This document shows positions 1-27,511 of a stretch of DNA of 27,511 nt, in pieces. Origin of the DNA: a virus (Duplodnaviria; Heunggongvirae; Uroviricota; Caudoviricetes); IMG/VR virus record IMGVR_UViG_2537562015_000010, one strand, 5' to 3'. The translations under genes were made by a program, and so were the position numbers. Each line of letters begins with the position of its first letter. Position 1 is the first letter of the stretch. Below the pieces are notes generated by a model, which was given only the letters and a program-made list of their open reading frames with translations, was not told the DNA's origin and did not search any database.

Positions 1-489
1 ATGATGATGATCTACGGCATGTTTGTTTTTGAGCTGCGCACGTTGCCGCATCAGCAGTTACAGCAAAACAAAAGCTGGCGGCATGTGAAAAATGAACGCG
101 TTAACCGTTCAGCAAGCTGGCAGTATATCGGGGCAGGCGATGATCGCATCGTTCTTTCTGGTGTGCTTTATCCTGAAATTACAGGTGGCGAAGTGTCGCT
201 TTCGTTGCTGACCACGCAGGCATATACAGGACGCCCCTGGCCTCTGATTGATGGTGTCGGGCAGATTTACGGCATGTATGTCCTGACCGGAACGAATACG
301 ACCCGCTCCGAGTTTGATCGCTACGGTAAGGCGAAAAAGATAGAATTTTCACTGACCCTTGAACGCTGTGATGAGGATTTGCGGGAGCGCCTGCAATCCT
401 CATCATTCAGCGATATGCTGTCCGGCTTCAAAGATAAGGTGACATCATCTCTTAACAGCGCGGCCAGTTCAGTTAAAGGGCTGTTCTGA
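1..489 (+). CDS. U: Tail protein, P2 gpU-like
   Basis: 162-aa ORF starting ATGATGATG at nt 1; N-terminus MMMIYGMFVFELRTLP and size resemble the P2 gpU family as I recall it; stop TGA at 487-489. Confidence 0.65.
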   Translation: MMMIYGMFVFELRTLPHQQLQQNKSWRHVKNERVNRSASWQYIGAGDDRIVLSGVLYPEITGGEVSLSLLTTQAYTGRPWPLIDGVGQIYGMYVLTGTNTTRSEFDRYGKAKKIEFSLTLERCDEDLRERLQSSSFSDMLSGFKDKVTSSLNSAASSVKGLF

Positions 490-497
490 TTTAACAC

Positions 498-534
498 AAA
501 AACCGCTAATGGTCAGATTAGCGGTTTTCTTTTT
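498..534. terminator. Bidirectional rho-independent terminator between convergent U and tfa
   Basis: Stem AACCGCTAAT (502-510) / ATTAGCGGTT (517-526), loop GGTCAG, flanked by an A-run upstream and TTTTCTTTTT downstream, so it is U-rich after the hairpin on both strands. Confidence 0.6.
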
Positions 535-742
535 CCTGGATCTGCCTGGTTGTTTCTTCGGCCTGTATGTCGCCTATGGGACTCACAGCTACGGCTGGAC
601 ATCATTTCCGACGAGAATAAACAAAAATTAACCGAGTGGATGCTCTACGCGTAGAAAGTCGAATCTACAGACACCTCCAGCCTGCCAGTAACGTTTCCCG
701 AACAACCTGAATGAGACAAGGCCCGCTATCGGGCCTTAATTT

Positions 743-1270
743 TTATTCAGGCTTTTGTGGCCATTCGGGATCTGCCGTATCCACACGGCTGACCAGAACA
801 CTGTAGCGTTCCCATGCTTCCAGTCGGCTGTGCTCCTCATCTGTTGCCATGTTCAGCCTGACAGCGCGCTCCAGTGGCAAAATCACGGATTCAGCATCTG
901 CAAGAAGTCTGGCTTTCCGGTTTTCTGCCTGCTGCTGCAATTCCTCTGCCGTATAAATGCGTTTAATCACTGTACCGTCCTTAAACATCCAGTTCCCTGA
1001 AATGTCCGCCCGTCGGTTAGCAGTAATATCCGCCACTTCAACAACACTTAATCCATCCGGTCTGATAGCTGTCACATCCTTTTCCACATAGCGGATGATA
1101 TTATCTTTGTCGTACGCTATTTTTAGCGTGTCATCAGCAAAATACTTTTGTTCTTCGTACCAGTTCTTACCATCTTCTGAAAAAAACCAGACAACATCAA
1201 AGTCTTTTGTCAATTGATATTGTTCAACCGTTTTTGGATTACCCGCCGTAATATTTTTTAAATGCTGCAT
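743..1270 (-). CDS. Tail fibre assembly protein (P2 gpG / Tfa family)
   Basis: 175-aa protein [30 protein letters not shown]...[30 protein letters not shown] is typical of enterobacterial tail fibre assembly chaperones; ATG at 1268-1270; lies immediately downstream of the tail fibre gene. Confidence 0.85.
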
Positions 1271-1273
1271 AAA

Positions 1274-4033
1274 TTATACCTGCGCCACGTTATACCATGT
1301 CCCGTTAATGTATTTCTGAACCGGTCTGTAATATACACCACCAATGTTATCGGCAGAGTTTGAGCCGGTATCCTGAACAATAATGCCGGAATATACACAC
1401 CCGGACGGTGCCTGATGTGTCCATGTCATGCCATTGTTCGCAGGTTTGTATGTGGCAGCACCACCAAGCCGGATATCCCGGACATAGCGGGAATCAAAGT
1501 TACCGTAATCCGAGGGATTAACACGCCCCGTAATATTTATGGTTTTATTACTTTGAATACTTCCCGAGACAAAGCGCATAACATGGACGCTATTAGCATA
1601 AACATCCAGATTACCATCACCATTTTGTTTAAAGCCCGTGTCATTATCACCCAAAACAATCGAATTACCGCCAAGAGCACTGGATGTTCCTATACCCAGA
1701 GCACCATTCAATTGACCACCAGATAACGGCAGTGCACCGACATCTCCCGCTGTAGGTTTTCGCGTTGTGGTATAAAACTCAGACCAGTCAGCCTCGAATC
1801 CGTAACCGTCACGAGCAGAACGATAAAAAATACCGCCGTTCTTATAATTAACGCGGAACTGGGCGGCGGGACAACTTCCTTCACCGATATTAAAATGAAG
1901 AATTAACGTTGATGCCCCACCAGTAGTTGCGTTATAGGCTCCGCTACTCCAGTTCCACCCAACGGCTTTATCATTCGCAACGGTGTCTCCTGTTTTTCCT
2001 GAGGCAAATGCACCAATATTTTTCGGCGTCAGGTTAATATCTGATGTTCCATCAAACGAAACGTTATTAATTTTACGGGCTGTTTTCAGCTTTGTTGCTG
2101 TCGCCGCATTGCCGGACAGTTCACCAGAAAGGCCAGCACTGAATGTCTGTTTCGCGCCCCATGTCTGGGCTTCGTCAATGATTGGTACTCGTCTTGCTGT
2201 GATCGTGCGGCTTCCCGGATTTCCTGAAATACGCACCATAAAAAATCGGTAGTTCGCTTTACTTACAGTGCTGCGCCATACATGCATTGAGCGCCCCGTA
2301 CCGGAATCATCACTCGGACCAACTGCGATGTTTATCAGGTTGCCATCAATGACGCCCCAGTCCATACCGTCGGGAATGTTGGTCATGTTATCAAGCCGAA
2401 CGGTTATCAGACTGCCCGGCACAAAGTCGTGGGTCTGCCAGTCCAGGCTGGTGAGCTTTGCCACTGCACCGCCGATACCCAGATTCAGGGGAAGTGAATA
2501 CGAGGTGTAGACTTCCCGCCATTCGCTCCACGAGCTGCCGGTATAGACGCGCTCAAACGTGCGACCTTTAAGGGTTGCACCTGTTCCGGCAGTTGTATAA
2601 CGCTGCCATACGTTAACACCATCAAAGCGCCTCAACACTTCCAGAATACCGAGGACTGTCACGCCGTTTCCGTCCAGTATTGGACCGTTGGTCGCTTTAC
2701 CTGTAACGCTGTAAATACCTGGTGAAGTCACATCATTCAAATCCCCGTCGTAATAACGACTCTCTGACTGATGACCGACTCTTAACCACGGTTCCCACTG
2801 CGGATTTGATGCATCCCAGCTTGCCGCAAGGCAGCGGACATACATATTTCCACGACGAGTGGTATAACGTTGCGTTCTTCCATAATTCCCGCCTTCGAGG
2901 ATCTCAAGCGTCCCCTGAGCAAAGCCGCCTTCCTCTGGATAATTGCGTTCATATGAAGCTATAGCCGAGCTACTGTTACGCCATAAACCAAGATGCTCAG
3001 CGGCTCCAAGCGTATTCAGGTCTATAGTCGTACTCAAAGGGCGGGTAGCTGATTGAGTGTGACGCCATACGCCCCACGGACCATCAGTGCCATTCCACTT
3101 ATTGGCGAGTCTGCGTATGTATACATTGCCGTCTCTCGTGATAAAACGTTGCGTGCCTGCAAAATTGCCAGCTGCAAAAACCTCAAGCACACCGACAGCA
3201 TTATCTTCCGGGAAATTTTTCTCCAGTGTTGCGTTGGTGGATGTTGCTTTAGACCAGATGCCAAGATAAGCCTTAACGGGACCAAATGTATTCAAGTCAG
3301 CATCAAGCGGCATTTCGCCATTGTTTTTCATAAACGTCAGGCTGGTAACGCCAACATTGTCCAGAAAAGCGCCCTTATCTGGAATATCGCCACCGTTCCG
3401 GTCTTTCTGCATACGTTTTTCAGCATTGTCATAGGCTGCTTTTACTGCCTTTGGCGTTGCCGCCAGCTCTTCACTGGTGCTGTTTGTTGCGCTACTTAAC
3501 TGAGTAAAACCTTTTTCTGTCAGCGTGGCGTCAGGATGGCGGCGGGATTGCTCATGCTCTGCGATTTTGTCATCGACGTAATCCTGCGTCGCCATCACTG
3601 TGCTGGCATCAATACTCAGCTCAACGGACGCTACGTTGCTGACAGTAATAACCATGCGGCAGGTCTGCGCGCGCCCGGAGCCTTCAGCGAGTTCAGGCTT
3701 ATAGCTTTCCGCCATGTTAGCGACCGCAATCAGTGTTCCGGCATCGTCATACAGACCCAGCTCACGCATCCAGAAGCCGCCCACTTCTGGCGGTACAACC
3801 AGTTCAGCCACGATATAGTTTTTATTCTTGTTATCCACGCTGACTTTATTCAGAGCGTGACGCCAGACCTCATGCACCAGTTTCGTCTGACCGGCATCCG
3901 GCACCGGCAATTTGCCATTACCGTCACCCACGGCCATTGCAGACAGAGTTACTTTTTTCCCGCCGGGGACAGTGGCGGCTGCCAGCTTCGCGGCTCCGGC
4001 AGTAGTGATAACGGTTTTAAATTTCGTGCTCAT
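1274..4033 (-). CDS. H: Tail fibre protein (P2 gpH-like N-terminus, long mosaic C-terminus)
   Basis: 919-aa ORF; N-terminal region MSTKFKTVITTAGAAKLAAATVPGGKKVTLSAMAVGDG resembles the gpH baseplate-attachment domain; ATG at 4031-4033; three internal tandem ~60-aa repeats. Confidence 0.85.
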   Translation of the reverse strand: MSTKFKTVITTAGAAKLAAATVPGGKKVTLSAMAVGDGNGKLPVPDAGQTKLVHEVWRHALNKVSVDNKNKNYIVAELVVPPEVGGFWMRELGLYDDAGTLIAVANMAESYKPELAEGSGRAQTCRMVITVSNVASVELSIDASTVMATQDYVDDKIAEHEQSRRHPDATLTEKGFTQLSSATNSTSEELAATPKAVKAAYDNAEKRMQKDRNGGDIPDKGAFLDNVGVTSLTFMKNNGEMPLDADLNTFGPVKAYLGIWSKATSTNATLEKNFPEDNAVGVLEVFAAGNFAGTQRFITRDGNVYIRRLANKWNGTDGPWGVWRHTQSATRPLSTTIDLNTLGAAEHLGLWRNSSSAIASYERNYPEEGGFAQGTLEILEGGNYGRTQRYTTRRGNMYVRCLAASWDASNPQWEPWLRVGHQSESRYYDGDLNDVTSPGIYSVTGKATNGPILDGNGVTVLGILEVLRRFDGVNVWQRYTTAGTGATLKGRTFERVYTGSSWSEWREVYTSYSLPLNLGIGGAVAKLTSLDWQTHDFVPGSLITVRLDNMTNIPDGMDWGVIDGNLINIAVGPSDDSGTGRSMHVWRSTVSKANYRFFMVRISGNPGSRTITARRVPIIDEAQTWGAKQTFSAGLSGELSGNAATATKLKTARKINNVSFDGTSDINLTPKNIGAFASGKTGDTVANDKAVGWNWSSGAYNATTGGASTLILHFNIGEGSCPAAQFRVNYKNGGIFYRSARDGYGFEADWSEFYTTTRKPTAGDVGALPLSGGQLNGALGIGTSSALGGNSIVLGDNDTGFKQNGDGNLDVYANSVHVMRFVSGSIQSNKTINITGRVNPSDYGNFDSRYVRDIRLGGAATYKPANNGMTWTHQAPSGCVYSGIIVQDTGSNSADNIGGVYYRPVQKYINGTWYNVAQV

Positions 4034-4043
4034 TGTTTCTCAC

Positions 4044-4571
4044 TTATCCGGGATAAACAGTAATAACATCACCATCACAGACCACACCGCCTGTATACAG
4101 ATAGCCGGGAATGTCCTGGATAATGTTCAGGCCGATAAGGTGGCGACTTGCGGGTTTGGCATCGGCAATCAGCCGTTCCATTTCCAGATACATTTCCTCA
4201 GTCACACCACTGTCCAGCGTGCCAACATCAACCTTGAATGTTCCGGGGTCGCCGTCGAACTCCCACCACTCAGACACGCGAATGAGGTATCCCAGCGGCT
4301 CAATGGCCCGGCGCAGTGCGCTGATGGTCCCTTTGTGTCGGTGTATCAGCCATGCATCACGAATAACCTGTCGCTTTGTCTCTTCCGGCCAGTTGCGATC
4401 CCAGCGGTCAACGGAAAATGCCCAGGCGAGATAAGGCAGCAGATGCACCGGGCAGGTGTCCGGTGACCACAGCGTGTTGAGGTCTACCGGGATGTTTGTA
4501 ATGCGCGCTCCGACAGCTTCGGCGCAACGCATGAAATTGCTGGCTGATGGTGGTAACAGTGAATTACTCAT
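4044..4571 (-). CDS. I: Baseplate assembly protein, P2 gpI-like
   Basis: Similar to P2 gpI (LLPYLAWAFSVDRWD..., ERLIADAKPASRHLIGLNI). The ORF track starts at GTG 4604; the P2-aligned ATG is at 4569-4571 (MSNSLLPP), overlapping the gpJ stop by 8 nt. Confidence 0.85.
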   Translation of the reverse strand: MSNSLLPPSASNFMRCAEAVGARITNIPVDLNTLWSPDTCPVHLLPYLAWAFSVDRWDRNWPEETKRQVIRDAWLIHRHKGTISALRRAIEPLGYLIRVSEWWEFDGDPGTFKVDVGTLDSGVTEEMYLEMERLIADAKPASRHLIGLNIIQDIPGYLYTGGVVCDGDVITVYPG

Positions 4572-11459: not shown

Positions 11460-12296
11460 TCAGAAGTCAGCCAGCTGGTCGGAGGCTGCGCCCGTTGCGG
11501 TGAACCGGTTCTGCGGATCGCCGTCCTGCGTGCGCAGCTTTTCCTTCAGTGCTGCCAGCTCTGTGGTCAGTGAAGTGATTTTCTGGCTGTCCTGCTGATG
11601 GCGGGTTTCCAGTGCATTAAAACGGTCGATAATGTCGGCCTGTGACGTTGCGACGCCTTCCACCGCTTCCTGAATGCGGGAGAAACTGGCGTCATCCGCT
11701 TTGCGGCCACGGCCAATAATCCCCATTACGCGGTTAAACCACTGGGTGCCTTCTTCCTGGCGTTGTTCTGCCATTTCGATGATTTCAGACTCGATGGCTT
11801 CGGAGATAAGCGGTGCTTCACCCTGGACACTGTTGAACGTCATCACCGCCTGACGTTGCTGTGCCGTGAATTTCAGGCGCTCAGTGCCCAGGCTTGCCGG
11901 GGTGTCGGTCATCGCCAGCCCGACCAGATAGGCGCGCCCGTTAACGGAGAACTGCGGGTGCAGTTCGATACTGGAATAGATTTTCTTGCCGTCAGCGACA
12001 AGCTGCTTCATGCGCTCGGTCGGTTCGATTTCTGCATACAGCGCAGTACGTCCGGCCAGCGGGCCTTCCGTAATATCTTCCGTACTCAGCGCGGTGACAT
12101 CGCCCATTGCGGAAAATTCGCTTGACGGGCATGGCGAGAGATAGTGCTCAACGTTCACGCGGGCAGCGTAAACATCCGGGTTGAAGTTCTCGGCGGCTTC
12201 ACGCAGATGCACCGGACTGATTTCGCGGCCATCAACAGTTGATCCGGAGACAGCCACGCGAAACTTTTTGCGGGATGTCTTTTTTTCATTAGCCAT
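11460..12296 (-). CDS. O: Capsid scaffolding protein, P2 gpO-like
   Basis: MANEKKTSRKKFRVAVSGSTVDGREISPVHL matches the P2 gpO N-terminus; ATG at 12294-12296 with GAGGGG upstream; the upstream in-frame ATG at 12329 is considered less likely. Confidence 0.85.
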   Translation of the reverse strand: MANEKKTSRKKFRVAVSGSTVDGREISPVHLREAAENFNPDVYAARVNVEHYLSPCPSSEFSAMGDVTALSTEDITEGPLAGRTALYAEIEPTERMKQLVADGKKIYSSIELHPQFSVNGRAYLVGLAMTDTPASLGTERLKFTAQQRQAVMTFNSVQGEAPLISEAIESEIIEMAEQRQEEGTQWFNRVMGIIGRGRKADDASFSRIQEAVEGVATSQADIIDRFNALETRHQQDSQKITSLTTELAALKEKLRTQDGDPQNRFTATGAASDQLADF

Positions 12297-12450
12297 AGTT
12301 TTTGCCCCTCTGACTGGTTCTTCAGTCATGATGGCAAAGCGTAACAGGCTGATACAAAGGGCTTTTGTTGTAAGAAAACGGCCAGAACAGGGGGTTAAGG
12401 AGAACGGTTTCGCGCGCGGGTAATCTTCCTGTAATTACTCAGGGGGAGCA

Positions 12451-15248: not shown

Positions 15249-15720
15249 CGCGCTTCGCTTGTCTGCTGCTTCGCCGGGGCATAAAAAATTTATGCCCCGA
15301 CTCTCCAGCTCCTGTATCAGTCAGATAATTTCACGACGCTTTCCTGCTTATTGCCATCATCGACGGTCAGACTCTTACGCAATCCCACTGCGCTGACTGC
15401 ATGTTCTCGCCGCCTCAGTGCGATTTTGACGGCCTTACCTTTCACCCCATCAAACCAGAATCCCTCACGTATTTTTCACGCTCAGCGTGAGAAATACGGC
15501 CATTCTGTCGTGTCGCTGCGACATCGTTAAGGGAACGCTATTTACCCCCTGAAACGCGGGCTGTTCCCCCGTCACCTGCGCGCAGAAAAAGCGCGTTTTT
15601 TTGTGCACGCACGGATCCTTGACGGATCCAGCCGCCACGCGGGCCGGAAGGGCAAAAAGTCGTTCAAAAAAATTGTGCAAATTTGTGCACTATTGTGCAG
15701 TCAAAAAATTGCCACATGTT
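15249..15720. other. Predicted cos / packaging region (exact cohesive-end site not identified)
   Basis: Non-coding region between the portal gene and the cargo, where P2 carries cos; contains a 29-bp dyad at 15469-15497, ACGGATCC at 15611-15618 and 15622-15629, and TTGTGCA at 15601, 15673, 15683 and 15693. Confidence 0.5.
15276..15298 (+). other. Perfect 10-bp stem hairpin 28 nt after the Q stop
   Basis: GGGGCATAAA-AAA-TTTATGCCCC; no U-run follows, so it may be a weak terminator or part of the cos/packaging signal. Confidence 0.4.
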
Positions 15721-15879
15721 GAATATTGCAGGTTAGCTTTAAGTTAGTTTAACTAAAATTTTCAGTGAATCGGGCGAAGTGGAGCTGTGAGCATAAAATC
15801 CTTGTTCACTAAGCAACATTATCTCAGTACATATTTGAAGCTAATTCCGCATGTGGCGATTTTTATGCAGGTGCATGAT

Positions 15880-15911
15880 ATAAGCAAAAGCCCGCCACAT
15901 CTGGCGGGCTT
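15880..15911 (-). terminator. Rho-independent terminator of the cargo operon
   Basis: 10-bp stem AAGCCCGCCA / TGGCGGGCTT with loop CATC; on the minus strand it is followed by TTTTGCTTAT; about 55 nt downstream of the ASCH gene stop. Confidence 0.55.
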
Positions 15912-15964
15912 CAGCGAAACGGTCCTTAAACGATCATGCAGAACCATGCAGCAAAGTCATGCTC

Positions 15965-16342
15965 TTATCCGCGTATATACCTAAAGGACTGAGGTGGTAC
16001 AGCGCCAGGTATCAATTCATTAAGTGGAATTGGAGTATCATAGCGCAGAGGGTTTTTTACTTCTATTGCGAATCCCTTGTCTCTTTCTGAAAAATATTCA
16101 TCAAAAAAATCCCGCGTAATACCTGCATACTTTTTTGTCATATTCCATAATTCATCTGGCTGAGATGACAAAACCTTTTCGATTTCAAACTCACCAATTA
16201 CCTTTCCGACGGGCATTGTTGCATAAATAATAACCGCTCGGACTTCTTTGTTCCGAAAAATTGTCTTCCTGAATTCGAATTTTTTATATCCATTTAAAAT
16301 GGATTCAGCGAACTCTGGTTTAATCGACAATAAAATTTTCAT
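15965..16342 (-). CDS. ASCH (PUA-like) domain protein, cargo gene 2
   Basis: 125 aa; N-terminus MKILLSIKPEFAESILNGYKKFEFRK carries the ASCH signature G-x-K-x-x-E-x-R; AT-rich codon usage; ATG at 16340-16342 overlaps the upstream gene by 23 nt. Confidence 0.6.
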   Translation of the reverse strand: MKILLSIKPEFAESILNGYKKFEFRKTIFRNKEVRAVIIYATMPVGKVIGEFEIEKVLSSQPDELWNMTKKYAGITRDFFDEYFSERDKGFAIEVKNPLRYDTPIPLNELIPGAVPPQSFRYIRG

Positions 16343-17375
16343 TAACCTTTCCCGCGCTTAAAACAGCTTTGAAGTGAATATCACTTAACGTGAAGAACCC
16401 TGAATAGCTTGGAGTATAACCTAAAATACTCAACAATTCATCTCTAATTATTCTTTTTTGCAAAGGGAAATTGTAAGTTAACTTAATTACATGTGGAGGA
16501 TAACATCTGCTATAATAAGCATGTAATTCTTCATCAGAAAAAATACTGGCGCCTCCACAATAAGACTTAAACTCATCATATGATAAAAATTCTCGAATGT
16601 TTTTATACTCTTGTAATGTACAAACAGAAGTAACCACCGACCGATATTTCGCCGCTCCCTGTCCATCTGTCGTTCGATAAATAATTATATTATCTCCTGG
16701 CTGAAGAAGCTCCATGCCTTTCATCGCGCCAATATATATCTTATGAATACTATTAGTATAAGTAACATCTTCTAAAATAGAATCATTTTCATTTTTTAAA
16801 ATTGACTCCGGGAAAAGCCTTGAATGAAACTCAGGTTTAATGGCTAATAAAAAATTTCTTCCATTCATTTTTATCATAGGATAATTATTATAAAATGATG
16901 CTGCTGATGGCTTCCAGTTAAAATCCTTAAAGTAGACACCTTCACAACCGTTTTCCGTCTCAAGATTTTTTCTTGAACACAATTTAAAACCATAGCGTTC
17001 AAGTAAACGAATCAATCCTTGATGTTTGTCAAAGATAGTAACGTACACTTCCTGAATATCATGAGGCATTGCAAAATCAAATATTTTTCTTACAAATCTC
17101 TCCCCCATTTTCGTTCCACGAGCATCTATTTTAAATGTTCCGCATTTAAGACGTTTTTTCATAGGGAAAGATGGGGTCATGTCATTTAATTCTTCATTTT
17201 CAATTTTGAGGTATAAAAAACCATCTATTTTTCCATAGTCATCATAAGATACGTATGCTTTCTCGTTTCTTTTCTTTAAGAACCAGCTTTCAAAAGTTGG
17301 GTAGTCATTTTTAAGTGAGTCAAAAAAAACATCTGAGAGGTCAACCTTCCCAAATTCGACATAACTAAGAGACAT
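16320..17375 (-). CDS. Two-domain cargo protein: N-terminal GNAT-like acetyltransferase fold plus C-terminal divergent ASCH-like domain
   Basis: 351 aa; the segment RGTKMGERFVRKIFDFAMPHDIQEVYVTIFDKHQGLIRLLERYGFK resembles GNAT motifs A/B; the C-terminal half begins LLAIKPEF, paralogous to the downstream ASCH protein but lacking the G-x-K-x-x-E-x-R motif; ATG at 17373-17375 with AAGGA upstream; AT-rich. Confidence 0.5.
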   Translation of the reverse strand: MSLSYVEFGKVDLSDVFFDSLKNDYPTFESWFLKKRNEKAYVSYDDYGKIDGFLYLKIENEELNDMTPSFPMKKRLKCGTFKIDARGTKMGERFVRKIFDFAMPHDIQEVYVTIFDKHQGLIRLLERYGFKLCSRKNLETENGCEGVYFKDFNWKPSAASFYNNYPMIKMNGRNFLLAIKPEFHSRLFPESILKNENDSILEDVTYTNSIHKIYIGAMKGMELLQPGDNIIIYRTTDGQGAAKYRSVVTSVCTLQEYKNIREFLSYDEFKSYCGGASIFSDEELHAYYSRCYPPHVIKLTYNFPLQKRIIRDELLSILGYTPSYSGFFTLSDIHFKAVLSAGKVNENFIVD

Positions 17376-17589: not shown

Positions 17590-17901
17590 TCATTGAGGGA
17601 ACATGGCCTGTATATTCTTTTTCATCTGTGTAACGTTGTTGTTCTCTGTATCCTGCTGTGGTGATTTATTTCGTGGCGTTGGTGTGAGCGGCTGGCTGAA
17701 TCCGCTTTCAGGCCATTCAGCCAGCCAGTAAGCAAAGGCAGGATCGCTTTTAATGAGTGCCAGTCCAGCCAGAAAGGCCGCGCGTTGCGCGCGGCTACGT
17801 TCAGAGGCTGGCAGGCTGTCGAGGTAATTACACGCCTCCCGTTCACTATTGACGGCGGCTGGCTTCAGATAGAAACTTATCCGTCTGGTTGGTGTCGTCA
17901 T
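17590..17901 (-). CDS. parR: ParR-like centromere-binding protein (ribbon-helix-helix)
   Basis: ATG at 17899-17901 with AAGGAG 7 nt upstream, 5 nt after the parM stop; RISFYLKPAAVNSEREACNYLDSLPASERSRAQRAAFLAGLALIKSDP resembles plasmid R1 ParR (TIAFKLNPDV...LDSIPQGERSRLNRAALTAGLALYRQDP); the longer ORF-track form overlapping parM is rejected. Confidence 0.65.
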   Translation of the reverse strand: MTTPTRRISFYLKPAAVNSEREACNYLDSLPASERSRAQRAAFLAGLALIKSDPAFAYWLAEWPESGFSQPLTPTPRNKSPQQDTENNNVTQMKKNIQAMFPQ

Positions 17902-17905
17902 TGGT

Positions 17906-18865
17906 TTACTCCTTGTCCATTGCGTACAGCCCATTAACCAGAGCAAACTGTGGCACCCCGTCCGCGATGAAAGTCGCATTAACTCCGCAGGCTTCGCGGA
18001 TAGCGGGTGCCACAATCTCCGCCCCGCCACCGACAACCATCACCCGTCCGTAACCCGAAAAACCCGCCAGCGCGCGGATCACGCGTTGTTTCAGTGTTTC
18101 TTCCTTTTCACGAATAACCGCCATCAGGCTGGCGTAATGCGCGTCATTGTGGATGTGCTGGCGCAGCCAGGCTTCATCATGGCGATGTTCGATAATGGTA
18201 TTGGCGATGTGGTGACTGGTGCGCATACCGTTAGTGGCCATCACCGACAGTACGGCATCGGCCATCAGAGAAACGCCTACGTGTGGATCGCAAAACACCT
18301 GGCTGATACCTGCCAGTTGCCCCTGAACCTTTGCCACATCCAGCGTGGTTCCGCCCAAATCCACAATCAGCAGGGATTCAAACGGACTCATGTCAGCCAG
18401 TGCCTTAAAGCCAGCCGGAATGGATTCAGGCATAACCCGCACGTTACGGATAGTGAATGCTTCGCCGTTCTGGTACTCCACCGGGCGCATGACGTTCGCT
18501 TTTTTGCGGTTGATGTTGGCCATGTCCGGCTGTGCGTTTGTGTCGAAATATTCGCTCAGTGGCAGGGTGACAACCACATCCACCTCCTGTGGTGTGATGC
18601 CTGATTTGACCAGCGCGTGATGAATGGCAATGACATTCACATCGCTGTACTGGTATTGCGTGTCGGTCGTCTGGACAAAGCGATCGCTGACCGGATCAAA
18701 ACCATAGCGCACGCCATCAAGCATGTAGTTCGCGGGCTGCGTGCCACCGAACGGCGCAGACCATTCCGACTTGAAGCTGTTCGGGCTGATGGCGTTGCGG
18801 CGTTCGCCGTTCTCAGTCCATGCCAGCTTGATGTTGGTGGAGCCGTCATCGATACAAATTTTCAT
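17906..18865 (-). CDS. parM: ParM/StbA-like actin-type segregation ATPase
   Basis: 319 aa; N-terminus MKICIDDGSTNIKLAW...ISPNSFK...YQYSDVNVIAIHHAL resembles R1 ParM (MLVFIDDGSTNIKLQW...); ATG at 18863-18865 with AAGGA upstream. Confidence 0.8.
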   Translation of the reverse strand: MKICIDDGSTNIKLAWTENGERRNAISPNSFKSEWSAPFGGTQPANYMLDGVRYGFDPVSDRFVQTTDTQYQYSDVNVIAIHHALVKSGITPQEVDVVVTLPLSEYFDTNAQPDMANINRKKANVMRPVEYQNGEAFTIRNVRVMPESIPAGFKALADMSPFESLLIVDLGGTTLDVAKVQGQLAGISQVFCDPHVGVSLMADAVLSVMATNGMRTSHHIANTIIEHRHDEAWLRQHIHNDAHYASLMAVIREKEETLKQRVIRALAGFSGYGRVMVVGGGAEIVAPAIREACGVNATFIADGVPQFALVNGLYAMDKE

Positions 18866-26455: not shown

Positions 26456-26521
26456 CCCTTTATTATTCTTACGTTTTACAAACTGGAAATGTCTTTCCTC
26501 GTTTCACCGGAGGGCTTGCCA

Positions 26522-27511
26522 ATGGCAATTAAAGCGCTCGATGGTGGACGGTATAAAGTGGATGTTAGACCGCGTGGCCGAAGTGGACGTCGGATTCAGC
26601 GGATTTTTAAGAAAAAGGCAGATGCAGTGGCCTTTGAGCGTTATGTTCTCAGCCACATGCACGATAAGGAATGGCTTGAAAAGCCAACAGAGCAACGTCA
26701 TCTCTCAGATCTGCTTCCGTTATGGTGGGAATTGGGTGGACGCAATAAGCCATATGCTAACGGCGTTCTAACCAGGTTGAAAAAAATCATCAAAGAAATG
26801 AATGATCCAAGGGTTAGCCAGATTAATGCTCGTTTCATGGCCGCTTATCGAAGCTCCCGTTTATCCTTGGGAGTAAAAGAGTCTACTGTTCGGCGTGATG
26901 AGTCGGATCTCGGAGGAATGTTTACACTCCTGGCAAATGCCGGGGAATTTCACGGAGAAAATCCGCTCCGCGCCCTCCCCTCTTTGAAACGAAAATCACC
27001 CGAAATGACGTATCTCACCACGGAAGAAATCGCCAAATTACTGGATGCAGTAAGCGGTGATGCTCGGCGGATTACGCTGCTTTGTCTCAGTACTGGTGCG
27101 AGATGGGGAGAAGCGAAAAATCTGCGCGCGGAACACATCATCAATAACCGCGTGACGTTTAACAAAACTAAAAACGGAAAAGTTCGAATTATTCCTGTCT
27201 CTGATGAAGTTGTTAGTGAGATCAAAACAAAGAAATCCGGCCTTTTGTTTGACGTCAATTATGAGGAATATCGCAAGGTGCTTCGCAGTGTTAAGCCTGA
27301 CCTACCGAAAGGGCAGGCTGTACATGTTCTACGCCATACCTTTGCAGCTCACTTTATGATTAATGGAGGAAATATACTTACGCTCCAGCGAATTATGGGG
27401 CACGCCACGATCCAGCAAACTATGACCTATGCGCACCTCGCTCCTGATTTCCTCCAGGATGCAATTTCACTTAATCCGTTAAAAGGAGGTATCCACATTT
27501 CATCCACATAA
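26522..27511 (+). CDS. int: Tyrosine integrase, P2 Int-like
   Basis: MAIKALDGGRYKVDVRPRGR..., ITLLCLSTGARWGEA and HVLRHTFAAHFMINGGNILTLQRIMGH...YAH align with P2 Int; ATG at 26522 preceded by GGAGGG; stop TAA at 27509-27511. Confidence 0.9.
   Translation: MAIKALDGGRYKVDVRPRGRSGRRIQRIFKKKADAVAFERYVLSHMHDKEWLEKPTEQRHLSDLLPLWWELGGRNKPYANGVLTRLKKIIKEMNDPRVSQINARFMAAYRSSRLSLGVKESTVRRDESDLGGMFTLLANAGEFHGENPLRALPSLKRKSPEMTYLTTEEIAKLLDAVSGDARRITLLCLSTGARWGEAKNLRAEHIINNRVTFNKTKNGKVRIIPVSDEVVSEIKTKKSGLLFDVNYEEYRKVLRSVKPDLPKGQAVHVLRHTFAAHFMINGGNILTLQRIMGHATIQQTMTYAHLAPDFLQDAISLNPLKGGIHISST

What the first reader, a model, noticed from the sequence alone, without database searches (positions are those of the whole stretch)
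1..742. Tail gene U is inverted relative to canonical P2 and converges on tfa; no gpD follows U
In P2 the FI-FII-E-T-U-D operon is co-directional with V-W-J-I-H-G. Here the gpU-like gene is on the opposite strand, ends at a bidirectional terminator and faces the tail fibre assembly gene, with nothing in the gpD position. This implies an inversion or module swap at the fibre junction. The window also begins exactly at the U start codon.
Basis: partly seen in the sequence, partly recalled or inferred. Interest (0 to 1): 0.4.

Follow-up and report, generated by a model that had tools for sequence, protein, structure and literature searches.

The report
P88-type prophage tail gene layout
The "inverted" tail gene U is real, but it is the normal gene order of a large, already sequenced branch of P2-family phages (phage P88 and relatives), and the gap after it holds the leftovers of a deleted tail-fibre switching cassette, so the finding is ordinary.

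Summary
Window 1-489 (+) encodes a gpU homolog (Pfam PF06995, 131.6 bits) that is 100% identical in protein to gpU of Escherichia phage P88. It ends at a bidirectional hairpin terminator (499-528) and converges on the fibre-assembly gene G (743-1270, -). No gpD follows it.

The interpretation as a local rearrangement is not supported. In close relatives (PhiR44_2, E. coli M00057, SCU-124) the order is ogr<- D<- | FI-> FII-> E-> E'-> T-> U-> | <-G <-H <-I <-J <-W <-V. The same order occurs in:
- P88 (genus Xuanwuvirus), SEN4 (Senquatrovirus) and two Klebsiella phages (Reginaelenavirus, Reipivirus);
- prophage Sp13 of O157 Sakai;
- 57 of 76 classifiable species-representative loci across Enterobacterales.

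Loci with this layout are monophyletic on FI, FII, U and D trees. P88-type U DNA is present in 1311 of 5426 complete E. coli genomes.

What is specific to this window is the 253-bp U-G spacer. It is what remains after a clean 1.7-kb deletion of the P88-type Gin-like invertible fibre cassette. The last 19 codons of the invertase survive (518-576, -), as do the last 46 codons of the alternative tfa' (574-714, +, with a nonsense codon at 652-654). No crossover sites remain.

Interest is low.

The parts
1..489 (+). gpU tail protein gene, last gene of the inverted FI-FII-E-E'-T-U late operon
   Evidence: PF06995 1.5e-38; PHROG 76; protein 100% identical to P88 gpU; preceded by T, E', E, FII and FI on the same strand in PhiR44_2, M00057 and SCU-124
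499..528 (.). bidirectional intrinsic-terminator hairpin; in P88 it is shared by the convergent U and invertase genes
   Evidence: Terminator scan; folds at -17 and -15.6 kcal/mol on the two strands; the same hairpin lies at P88 27555-27596, between the invertase stop and the U stop (I8)
518..576 (-). relic of the serine DNA invertase gene: last 19 codons plus the stop codon
   Evidence: Window 1-576 aligns to P88_4B11 16750-16175 at 96.4%, running into the 3' end of its invertase gene (15634-16233). The translation IGDIQAEETTRQIQEKENR* compares with VGDIQTEETTGQTQENENR*. It also matches the invertase fragment of strain 4238
574..714 (+). relic of the alternative tail fibre assembly gene tfa' (G'): last 46 codons plus stop, inactivated by CAG->TAG at 652-654
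   Evidence: Nucleotide and protein alignment to the C-terminus of P88 G'; annotated as 'tail fiber assembly protein, incomplete, missing N-terminus' in M00057, EcPF14 and SCU-124; 79-88% matches to the tfa/tfa' pairs of Mu, D108, SfMu and P1-like plasmids
718..737 (.). GC-rich terminator hairpin between the convergent tfa' relic and G
   Evidence: z -5.7 and -6.1; conserved in P88 (alignment)
743..1270 (-). tail fibre assembly gene G (P2-type allele)
   Evidence: PF02413 2.1e-34; window 743-1400 is 94-97% identical in DNA to G and the 3' end of H in Peduovirus (P2-type) phages
1274..4033 (-). tail fibre gene H, mosaic: P88-type N-terminus with a different distal part, and no invertase crossover site
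   Evidence: PF12571, PF03406 and PF12604; P88 similarity stops at window 3429; no gix-like site in the window

Best explanation
The window is a P88-like (Xuanwuvirus-type) P2-family prophage, read from gpU to the integrase.

In this whole clade the sheath-tube-tape-measure operon FI-FII-E-E'-T-U, together with its own Ogr-type late promoter, lies inverted relative to P2. Transcription therefore runs from FI towards the fibre genes and stops at the hairpin after U. gpD and ogr keep the P2 orientation on the other side of FI, and gpD must be transcribed divergently from the FI-D spacer.

In P88 itself, a Gin/Cin/Pin-type invertible fibre cassette sits between U and the fibre genes. It consists of H-G, inverted G'-H', two gix-like sites and a serine invertase.

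In this window a single 1.7-kb deletion removed most of the invertase gene, one crossover site, H' and the 5' two-thirds of G'. The distal H-G part has also been replaced by a P2-type allele without a site. The fibre is therefore locked in one state, and U now abuts G across 253 bp of relics.

Shown: gene identities, the layout in relatives, the deletion end-points, the absence of crossover sites, and the clade distribution. Inferred: transcription and termination, and a single ancient inversion.
For: Gene identity:
- gpU identity.

Layout in relatives:
- Upstream FI..T, with a divergent D and ogr, in three close relatives that share the same junction at 98-99.9%.
- The P88 and P88_4B11 maps show H G | G' H' | invertase | U T E' E FII FI | D.
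- The inverted layout is also in SEN4, Kp4860-2, Kp4848-1 and Sp13, and in 57 of 76 classifiable loci from more than 20 enterobacterial genera. The split is clean at about 52-53% gpU identity.
- Inverted loci are monophyletic on FI, FII, U and D trees rooted on phiCTX, with no canonical locus nested inside.

The cassette and its deletion:
- The P88 gix-like sites are TTATCGAATACCTCGGTTTACAGGAA and TTATCTAAAACCTCGGTTTACAGGAA.
- Window 1-576 equals P88_4B11 16750-16175, and window 574-1328 equals 14462-13708. This is a clean 1712-bp deletion with a 3-nt overlap.
- The relic translations match the invertase and G' C-termini.
- Other junction states exist in E. coli: an invertase HTH fragment only (strain 4238), and U directly against G (S87).

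Promoter and viability:
- A P2-type late-promoter dyad, TGT-N12-A(C/G)A, lies 75-88 bp before the FI start across the clade.
- P88, SEN4 and PhiR44_2 are phages that make particles or plaques, so the layout is functional (PMC5285337; PMC5261728; the PV340564 record).
Against: The DNA to the left of the window is not available. The upstream FI..T and D genes are inferred from relatives that are 98-99.9% identical at the junction, and no exact source genome was found among complete E. coli genomes (best 98.1%).

No transcript data exist, so terminator and promoter use are predictions.

The trees are quick neighbour-joining trees without bootstrap support.

The cause of the original inversion is unknown. 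No inverted repeats flank FI-U, and the invertase gene keeps its orientation relative to the fibre genes in both layouts. The known crossover sites therefore cannot explain the inversion.
Confidence: 0.9

Rival explanations
1. A recent inversion or rearrangement took place in this particular prophage at the fibre junction, for example catalysed by a resident invertase.
For: Invertase and tfa' relics do lie exactly at the junction. Fibre-region mosaicism is evident: G and distal H are P2-type at 94-97%.
Against: The same U-to-fibre convergence is found in P88, SEN4, Sp13 and 57 species-representative loci that span gpU identities from 97% down to 52%. These loci are monophyletic. P88-type U is present in 1311 of 5426 E. 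coli genomes. No crossover sites are left in the window, and no inverted repeats flank FI-U. The only recent event at this locus is a deletion, not an inversion.
Confidence: 0.03
2. The FI-U block is a foreign module acquired from another phage lineage and inserted backwards (a module swap), rather than an in-place inversion.
For: The U DNA has no megablast match in P2-type phages, while G and H do. P2-family genomes are mosaic.
Against: Identity to canonical-layout SopE-phi and Gegavirus is about the same for genes inside the block (FI 48-49%, FII 45-47%, U 46-50%) and outside it (V 39-41%, W 51-53%, J 51-52%, I 42-52%, D 51-53%). D, which lies outside the block, gives the same clade as FI, FII and U. 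The high-identity outlier is the fibre tip, not the FI-U block.
Confidence: 0.05
3. The junction is an assembly artefact, or a chimera of two P2-like prophages.
For: The window starts exactly at a gene boundary. Many E. coli genomes carry more than one P2-like element (up to 8 places per genome).
Against: The identical junction, including both relics, is found in 14 independent complete E. coli genomes and in the phage record PhiR44_2.
Confidence: 0.01

Closest known systems
Escherichia phage P88 (KP063541; Peduoviridae, genus Xuanwuvirus) and P88_4B11 (LR595891)
   Same: gpU protein 100% and 99.4% identical. About 73% of the window aligns to P88 at 94-97% DNA identity. Same inverted FI-U operon with a divergent D, and the same terminator after U.
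   Different: P88 carries an intact invertible fibre cassette (G', H', two gix-like sites, a 195-aa invertase) between U and G. The window has lost 1.7 kb of it and has a different, P2-type G and distal H. The cargo genes also differ: the window carries a PDC-M11 candidate cassette.
Escherichia phage PhiR44_2 (PV340564) and prophages of E. coli M00057, SCU-124 and EcPF14
   Same: The same U-relic-G junction at 98-99.9% (86.9% in EcPF14), including the nonsense codon in the tfa' relic.
   Different: They are not identical elsewhere: 98.4% over 13.4 kb for PhiR44_2. D is truncated in M00057.
Salmonella phage SEN4 (Senquatrovirus) and O157:H7 Sakai prophage Sp13
   Same: Inverted FI-U with U converging on the fibre assembly gene, and D divergent from FI (truncated in Sp13).
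   Different: SEN4 is only 53% identical in gpU and has no invertase relics annotated. Sp13 is degraded by IS elements.
Bacteriophage P2 late operon F (FI FII E E' T U D)
   Same: The same genes in the same internal order. A P2-type late-promoter dyad lies upstream of FI.
   Different: In P2 the operon is co-directional with V-W-J-I-H-G and includes D directly after U. Here it is inverted, and D is outside it.
Mu G segment / P1 C segment / e14 P segment (Gin, Cin, Pin invertible tail-fibre switches)
   Same: Window 574-1397 is about 79-81% identical to the Mu, D108 and SfMu segments.
   Different: In the window the switch is dead. Only 19 invertase codons and 46 tfa' codons remain, and there are no crossover sites.

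Membership tests
P2 gpU tail protein family (PF06995) | Full-length match to the family profile above the curated threshold | tested here: met
   131.6 bits against a cut-off of 27.5, model positions 1-120 of 120
P2 gpU tail protein family (PF06995) | Genomic position directly after the tape-measure gene T | tested here: met
   Not visible in the window itself, but it holds in three relatives with the same junction and in all 80 surveyed loci where T was detected
P88-like phages (genus Xuanwuvirus, Peduoviridae) | High nucleotide similarity to P88 over most of the genome (as I recall, the ICTV genus guideline is about 70%) | tested here: inconclusive
   About 20.1 kb of the 27.5-kb window aligns at 94-97%, which gives roughly 70% overall. 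The left ~8 kb of the prophage is outside the window
P88-like phages (genus Xuanwuvirus, Peduoviridae) | Gene layout: FI-U inverted and converging on the fibre genes; D divergent from FI | tested here: met
   U converging on G is seen in the window. The remainder is seen in relatives 98-99.9% identical at the junction
Canonical P2 F operon (FI FII E T U D, co-directional with V-G) | U on the same strand as V-W-J-I-H-G and followed directly by D | tested here: not met
   U is on the + strand and V-G on the - strand. No D ORF follows U
Gin/Cin/Pin/Hin-type invertible tail-fibre switch | Intact serine invertase gene next to the segment | tested here: not met
   Only the last 19 codons remain (518-576, -)
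Gin/Cin/Pin/Hin-type invertible tail-fibre switch | Two inverted crossover sites (gix-type, core AAACC-NN-GGTTT), one of them inside the fibre gene | tested here: not met
   No match in 1-4200 with up to 1 mismatch to the core, and none anywhere with up to 3 mismatches to the P88 site. P88 has both sites
Gin/Cin/Pin/Hin-type invertible tail-fibre switch | An alternative fibre tip plus tfa' in inverted orientation | tested here: not met
   Only a 141-nt 3' relic of tfa' remains, with a premature stop. There is no H'

The most novel reading that the evidence does not exclude
The ancient inversion cut gpD off from the FI promoter, and the clade solved this with a bidirectional late promoter. A single Ogr-type dyad (TGT-N12-A(C/G)A) in the 122-195-bp D-FI spacer would activate FI rightwards and D leftwards.

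A CGCGCGCG block is conserved 18-23 bp from the dyad on the D side in the inverted-clade loci I aligned. In canonical P2-type FI promoters, and in this window's own P promoter, such a block lies on the transcribed side of the dyad.

This region is outside the window and is untested.
Probability: 0.3. Interest if true: 0.35.

Novelty: already known. Interest (0 to 1): 0.1.

Why it matters
It matters mainly for annotation and triage. A gpU gene that converges on the fibre genes, with no gpD after it, should not be flagged as a rearrangement in P88-like prophages, which sit in about a quarter of complete E. coli genomes.

The small added value is a precise reading of the U-G spacer as a decayed invertible host-range switch. 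There is also a series of decay states in E. coli (intact cassette, invertase fragment only, tfa' relic only, nothing left). This shows that these prophages repeatedly lose fibre switching.

The uncoupling of gpD from the F operon raises a modest, testable question about how late expression of D is driven in this clade.

Tried and rejected
- Invertase crossover sites in the window. I searched for the AAACC-NN-GGTTT core with up to 1 mismatch and the 19-nt P88 site with up to 3 mismatches. Nothing was found in the fibre region.
- Inverted repeats within window 1-4200 and flanking the FI-U block in PhiR44_2. Only short, chance-level pairs were found, none at the block ends. No trace of the mechanism of the old inversion remains.
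- An exact TGT-N12-ACA search in PhiR44_2 gave 0 hits, because this lineage uses AGA in the right half-site. I re-scanned with a mismatch allowed.
- I first treated window 539-573 as filler of unknown origin. It turned out to be the 3' end of a P88_4B11-type invertase allele.
- Literature. The P88 paper, the SEN4 paper and a 2026 survey of P2-like prophages contain no text on the inversion. The Casjens & Grose 2016 comparative paper on P2-like prophages is not held. I therefore cannot say whether the layout has been discussed in print, only that it is plain in the deposited annotated genomes.
- The exact source genome among complete E. coli genomes was not found; the best match is 98.1%.
- A first tree script timed out. 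I re-ran it with a lighter distance calculation.

Full report
**1. The observation**

The window is a P2-family prophage lying in reverse orientation. It runs from gpU at the left end to a tyrosine integrase (26489-27511, +) at the right end.

- ORF 1-489 (+) is a full-length gpU homolog: Pfam PF06995, E 1.5e-38, 131.6 bits against a threshold of 27.5; PHROG 76, 6e-74.
- ORFs on the minus strand to its right are, in order, G (tail fibre assembly, 743-1270), H (1274-4033), I, J, W, V, S and R.
- U and G therefore converge, and no gpD-like ORF follows U.
- A 12-bp hairpin at 499-528 has an A-run on one side and a T-run on the other. It folds well on both strands and scans as a terminator.
- A second, GC-rich hairpin lies at 718-737.

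The window's exact start at the ATG of U, and its end at the integrase stop codon, reflect how the window was cut.

**2. What lies upstream, and where gpD is**

Window 1-1400 is 99.9% identical to Escherichia phage PhiR44_2. It is 99.8% and 98.3% identical to prophages in E. coli M00057 and SCU-124.

In all three the order is ogr<- D<- | FI-> FII-> E-> E'-> T-> U-> | tfa' relic | <-G <-H <-I <-J <-W <-V. So gpD is not lost. It keeps its P2 orientation next to ogr, on the far side of FI, and is separated from FI by about 158 bp of divergent spacer. Only the FI-to-U block is flipped relative to P2. I checked the canonical order on a P2 record and on PSP3.

**3. This is the standard layout of a recognised lineage**

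The gpU protein is 100% identical to that of phage P88, type phage of the genus Xuanwuvirus (Peduoviridae), and 99.4% identical to that of P88_4B11. About 20 kb of the window aligns to P88 at 94-97%.

P88 and P88_4B11 have the same inverted FI-U block and divergent D. So do:
- Salmonella phage SEN4 (Senquatrovirus);
- Klebsiella phages Kp4860-2 (Reginaelenavirus) and Kp4848-1 (Reipivirus);
- the defective prophage Sp13 of O157:H7 Sakai.

By contrast, ST15-OXA48phi14.1 (Gegavirus) and SopE-phi (Felsduovirus) have the canonical order.

I then scanned one genome per bacterial species with a gpU alignment, which returned 80 loci. I classified them with tblastn of 14 marker proteins.
- 57 loci have the inverted layout, 19 are canonical, and 4 are too short to call.
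- The inverted loci come from Salmonella, Serratia, Kosakonia, Enterobacter, Trabulsiella, Symbiopectobacterium, Mixta, Izhakiella, Pantoea, Erwinia, Kluyvera, Pectobacterium, Brenneria, Klebsiella, Yokenella, Edwardsiella, Morganella, Providencia, Photorhabdus, Xenorhabdus, Yersinia, Hafnia, Citrobacter and Dryocola.
- Every locus with gpU at least 53% identical to the window's is inverted. Canonical loci have 47-52% identity.

On neighbour-joining trees of FI, FII, U and D rooted on phiCTX, the inverted loci form one clade with no canonical locus inside. D lies outside the flipped block and gives the same clade. Genes inside and outside the block are similarly diverged from canonical-layout phages. 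An in-place inversion in the ancestor of this clade is therefore the simplest reading. Acquisition of a foreign block is less likely.

P88-type U DNA (95% identity or more) is present in 1311 of 5426 complete E. coli genomes. P88 and SEN4 make virions (PMC5285337, PMC5261728), and PhiR44_2 is deposited as a phage with E. coli C as host. The layout is therefore fully functional.

That condition is met.

**4. What is specific to this window: the 253-bp spacer**

In P88 the space between U and G holds a classical invertible fibre cassette. Its order is H-G, then inverted G'-H', then a 195-aa serine invertase that converges on U.

The cassette is bounded by a 65-nt inverted repeat. The repeat carries TTATCGAATACCTCGGTTTACAGGAA inside H and TTATCTAAAACCTCGGTTTACAGGAA upstream of the invertase. 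From memory, these match the Mu gix site.

- Window 1-576 aligns to P88_4B11 16750-16175 (96.4%), and window 574-1328 aligns to 14462-13708. One clean deletion of 1712 bp, with 3 nt of overlap, separates the two.
- Window 518-576 (-) encodes the last 19 residues and stop codon of the invertase: IGDIQAEETTRQIQEKENR* against VGDIQTEETTGQTQENENR*.
- Window 574-714 (+) encodes the last 46 residues and stop codon of G'. It is nearly identical to P88 G', but CAG has become TAG at 652-654.
- The hairpin at 499-528 is the terminator that U and the invertase share in P88 (pair I8). The hairpin at 718-737 is the one between G' and G.
- No crossover site survives anywhere in the window.
- Similarity of H to P88 stops at position 3429. 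G and the 3' end of H are 94-97% identical to P2-type Peduovirus alleles. The distal fibre has therefore been exchanged as well.

The fibre is locked in a single state.

The same junction occurs in 14 complete E. coli genomes. U next to an intact invertase occurs in 508. Other states also exist: strain 4238 keeps only a C-terminal invertase fragment, and strain S87 has U directly against G.

**5. How it most likely works**

FI-U is transcribed from a P2-type late promoter. A TGT-N12-A(C/G)A dyad lies 75-88 bp before the FI start in most of the inverted-clade loci surveyed. In this lineage it reads TTGTTGT-N12-AGAAC. That exact string occurs upstream of FI in PhiR44_2 and upstream of P in the window, at 12365-12388.

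Transcription then ends at 499-528 after U. These steps are inferred from sequence, not measured.

How the original inversion arose cannot be recovered. No inverted repeats flank the block. The invertase gene keeps the same orientation relative to the fibre genes in both layouts, so the known crossover sites were not the end-points.

**6. A loose end**

Because D is no longer downstream of U, it needs its own promoter. The D-FI spacer (122-195 bp across the clade) contains only one good dyad. A conserved CGCGCGCG block lies 18-23 bp from the dyad on the D side.

In canonical FI promoters, and in the window's P promoter, a similar block lies on the transcribed side of the dyad. The region upstream of canonical FI promoters is a terminator or the end of the invertase gene.

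A shared, bidirectional activator site is therefore possible. It is untested and lies outside the window.

**7. Verdict**

However, the layout is the ordinary, already deposited organisation of P88-like and related Peduoviridae. The only local event is a deletion that killed an invertible fibre switch. Novelty: already known. Interest: low.

Noticed in passing
window 15965-17375 (-): A two-gene cassette next to the portal gene Q matches the PADLOC candidate defence system PDC-M11 (A: 3.9e-131; B: 5.7e-51, with an ASCH domain). It sits in the known cargo and defence hotspot of P2-like phages and is absent from P88.
   Followed up: partly
window 17590-18865 (-): ParM/StbA-type plasmid segregation genes lie inside the prophage, after the replication gene A. 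The same genes are in P88 and Sakai Sp13.
   Followed up: no
L001 3409-3565 (D-FI spacer, outside the window); window 12295-12450 (O-P spacer): Each divergent late-gene spacer holds a single TGT-N12-AGA dyad. In the D-FI spacer a conserved CGCGCGCG block lies on the D side of the dyad across the inverted clade. This suggests one activator site serving two divergent late promoters.
   Followed up: partly
L015 (NZ_JBQPOM010000071.1, 'Vagococcus sp. WN89Y'): A contig labelled as a Gram-positive Vagococcus carries a complete P88-like layout with gpU 97% identical to the window's. This is probably contamination or a mislabelled assembly.
   Followed up: no
L023 (Trabulsiella odontotermitis): The marker order after U is I+ Hn+ G- inv+, which differs from the rest of the clade. 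This is a further rearrangement at the fibre junction.
   Followed up: no
L002 8656-9500 (E. coli M00057): gpD is truncated there (263 aa plus a fragment, with about 400 bp of extra spacer before FI). That prophage is probably defective, although its U-G junction is 99.8% identical to the window's. SCU-124 and PhiR44_2 have a full-length D.
   Followed up: no
L097 2514-3653 (E. coli SCU-124); L002 8021-8161: Cargo sits between D and the attachment site: a YecA-family gene between D and ogr in SCU-124, and a Hok/Gef toxin gene beyond ogr in several relatives.
   Followed up: no
window 1733-2012: This part of H is 80% identical to the alternative, inverted H' copy of P88 (P88 26171-26450), not to P88's expressed H. 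The window's fibre tip is therefore related to the other switch state.
   Followed up: no
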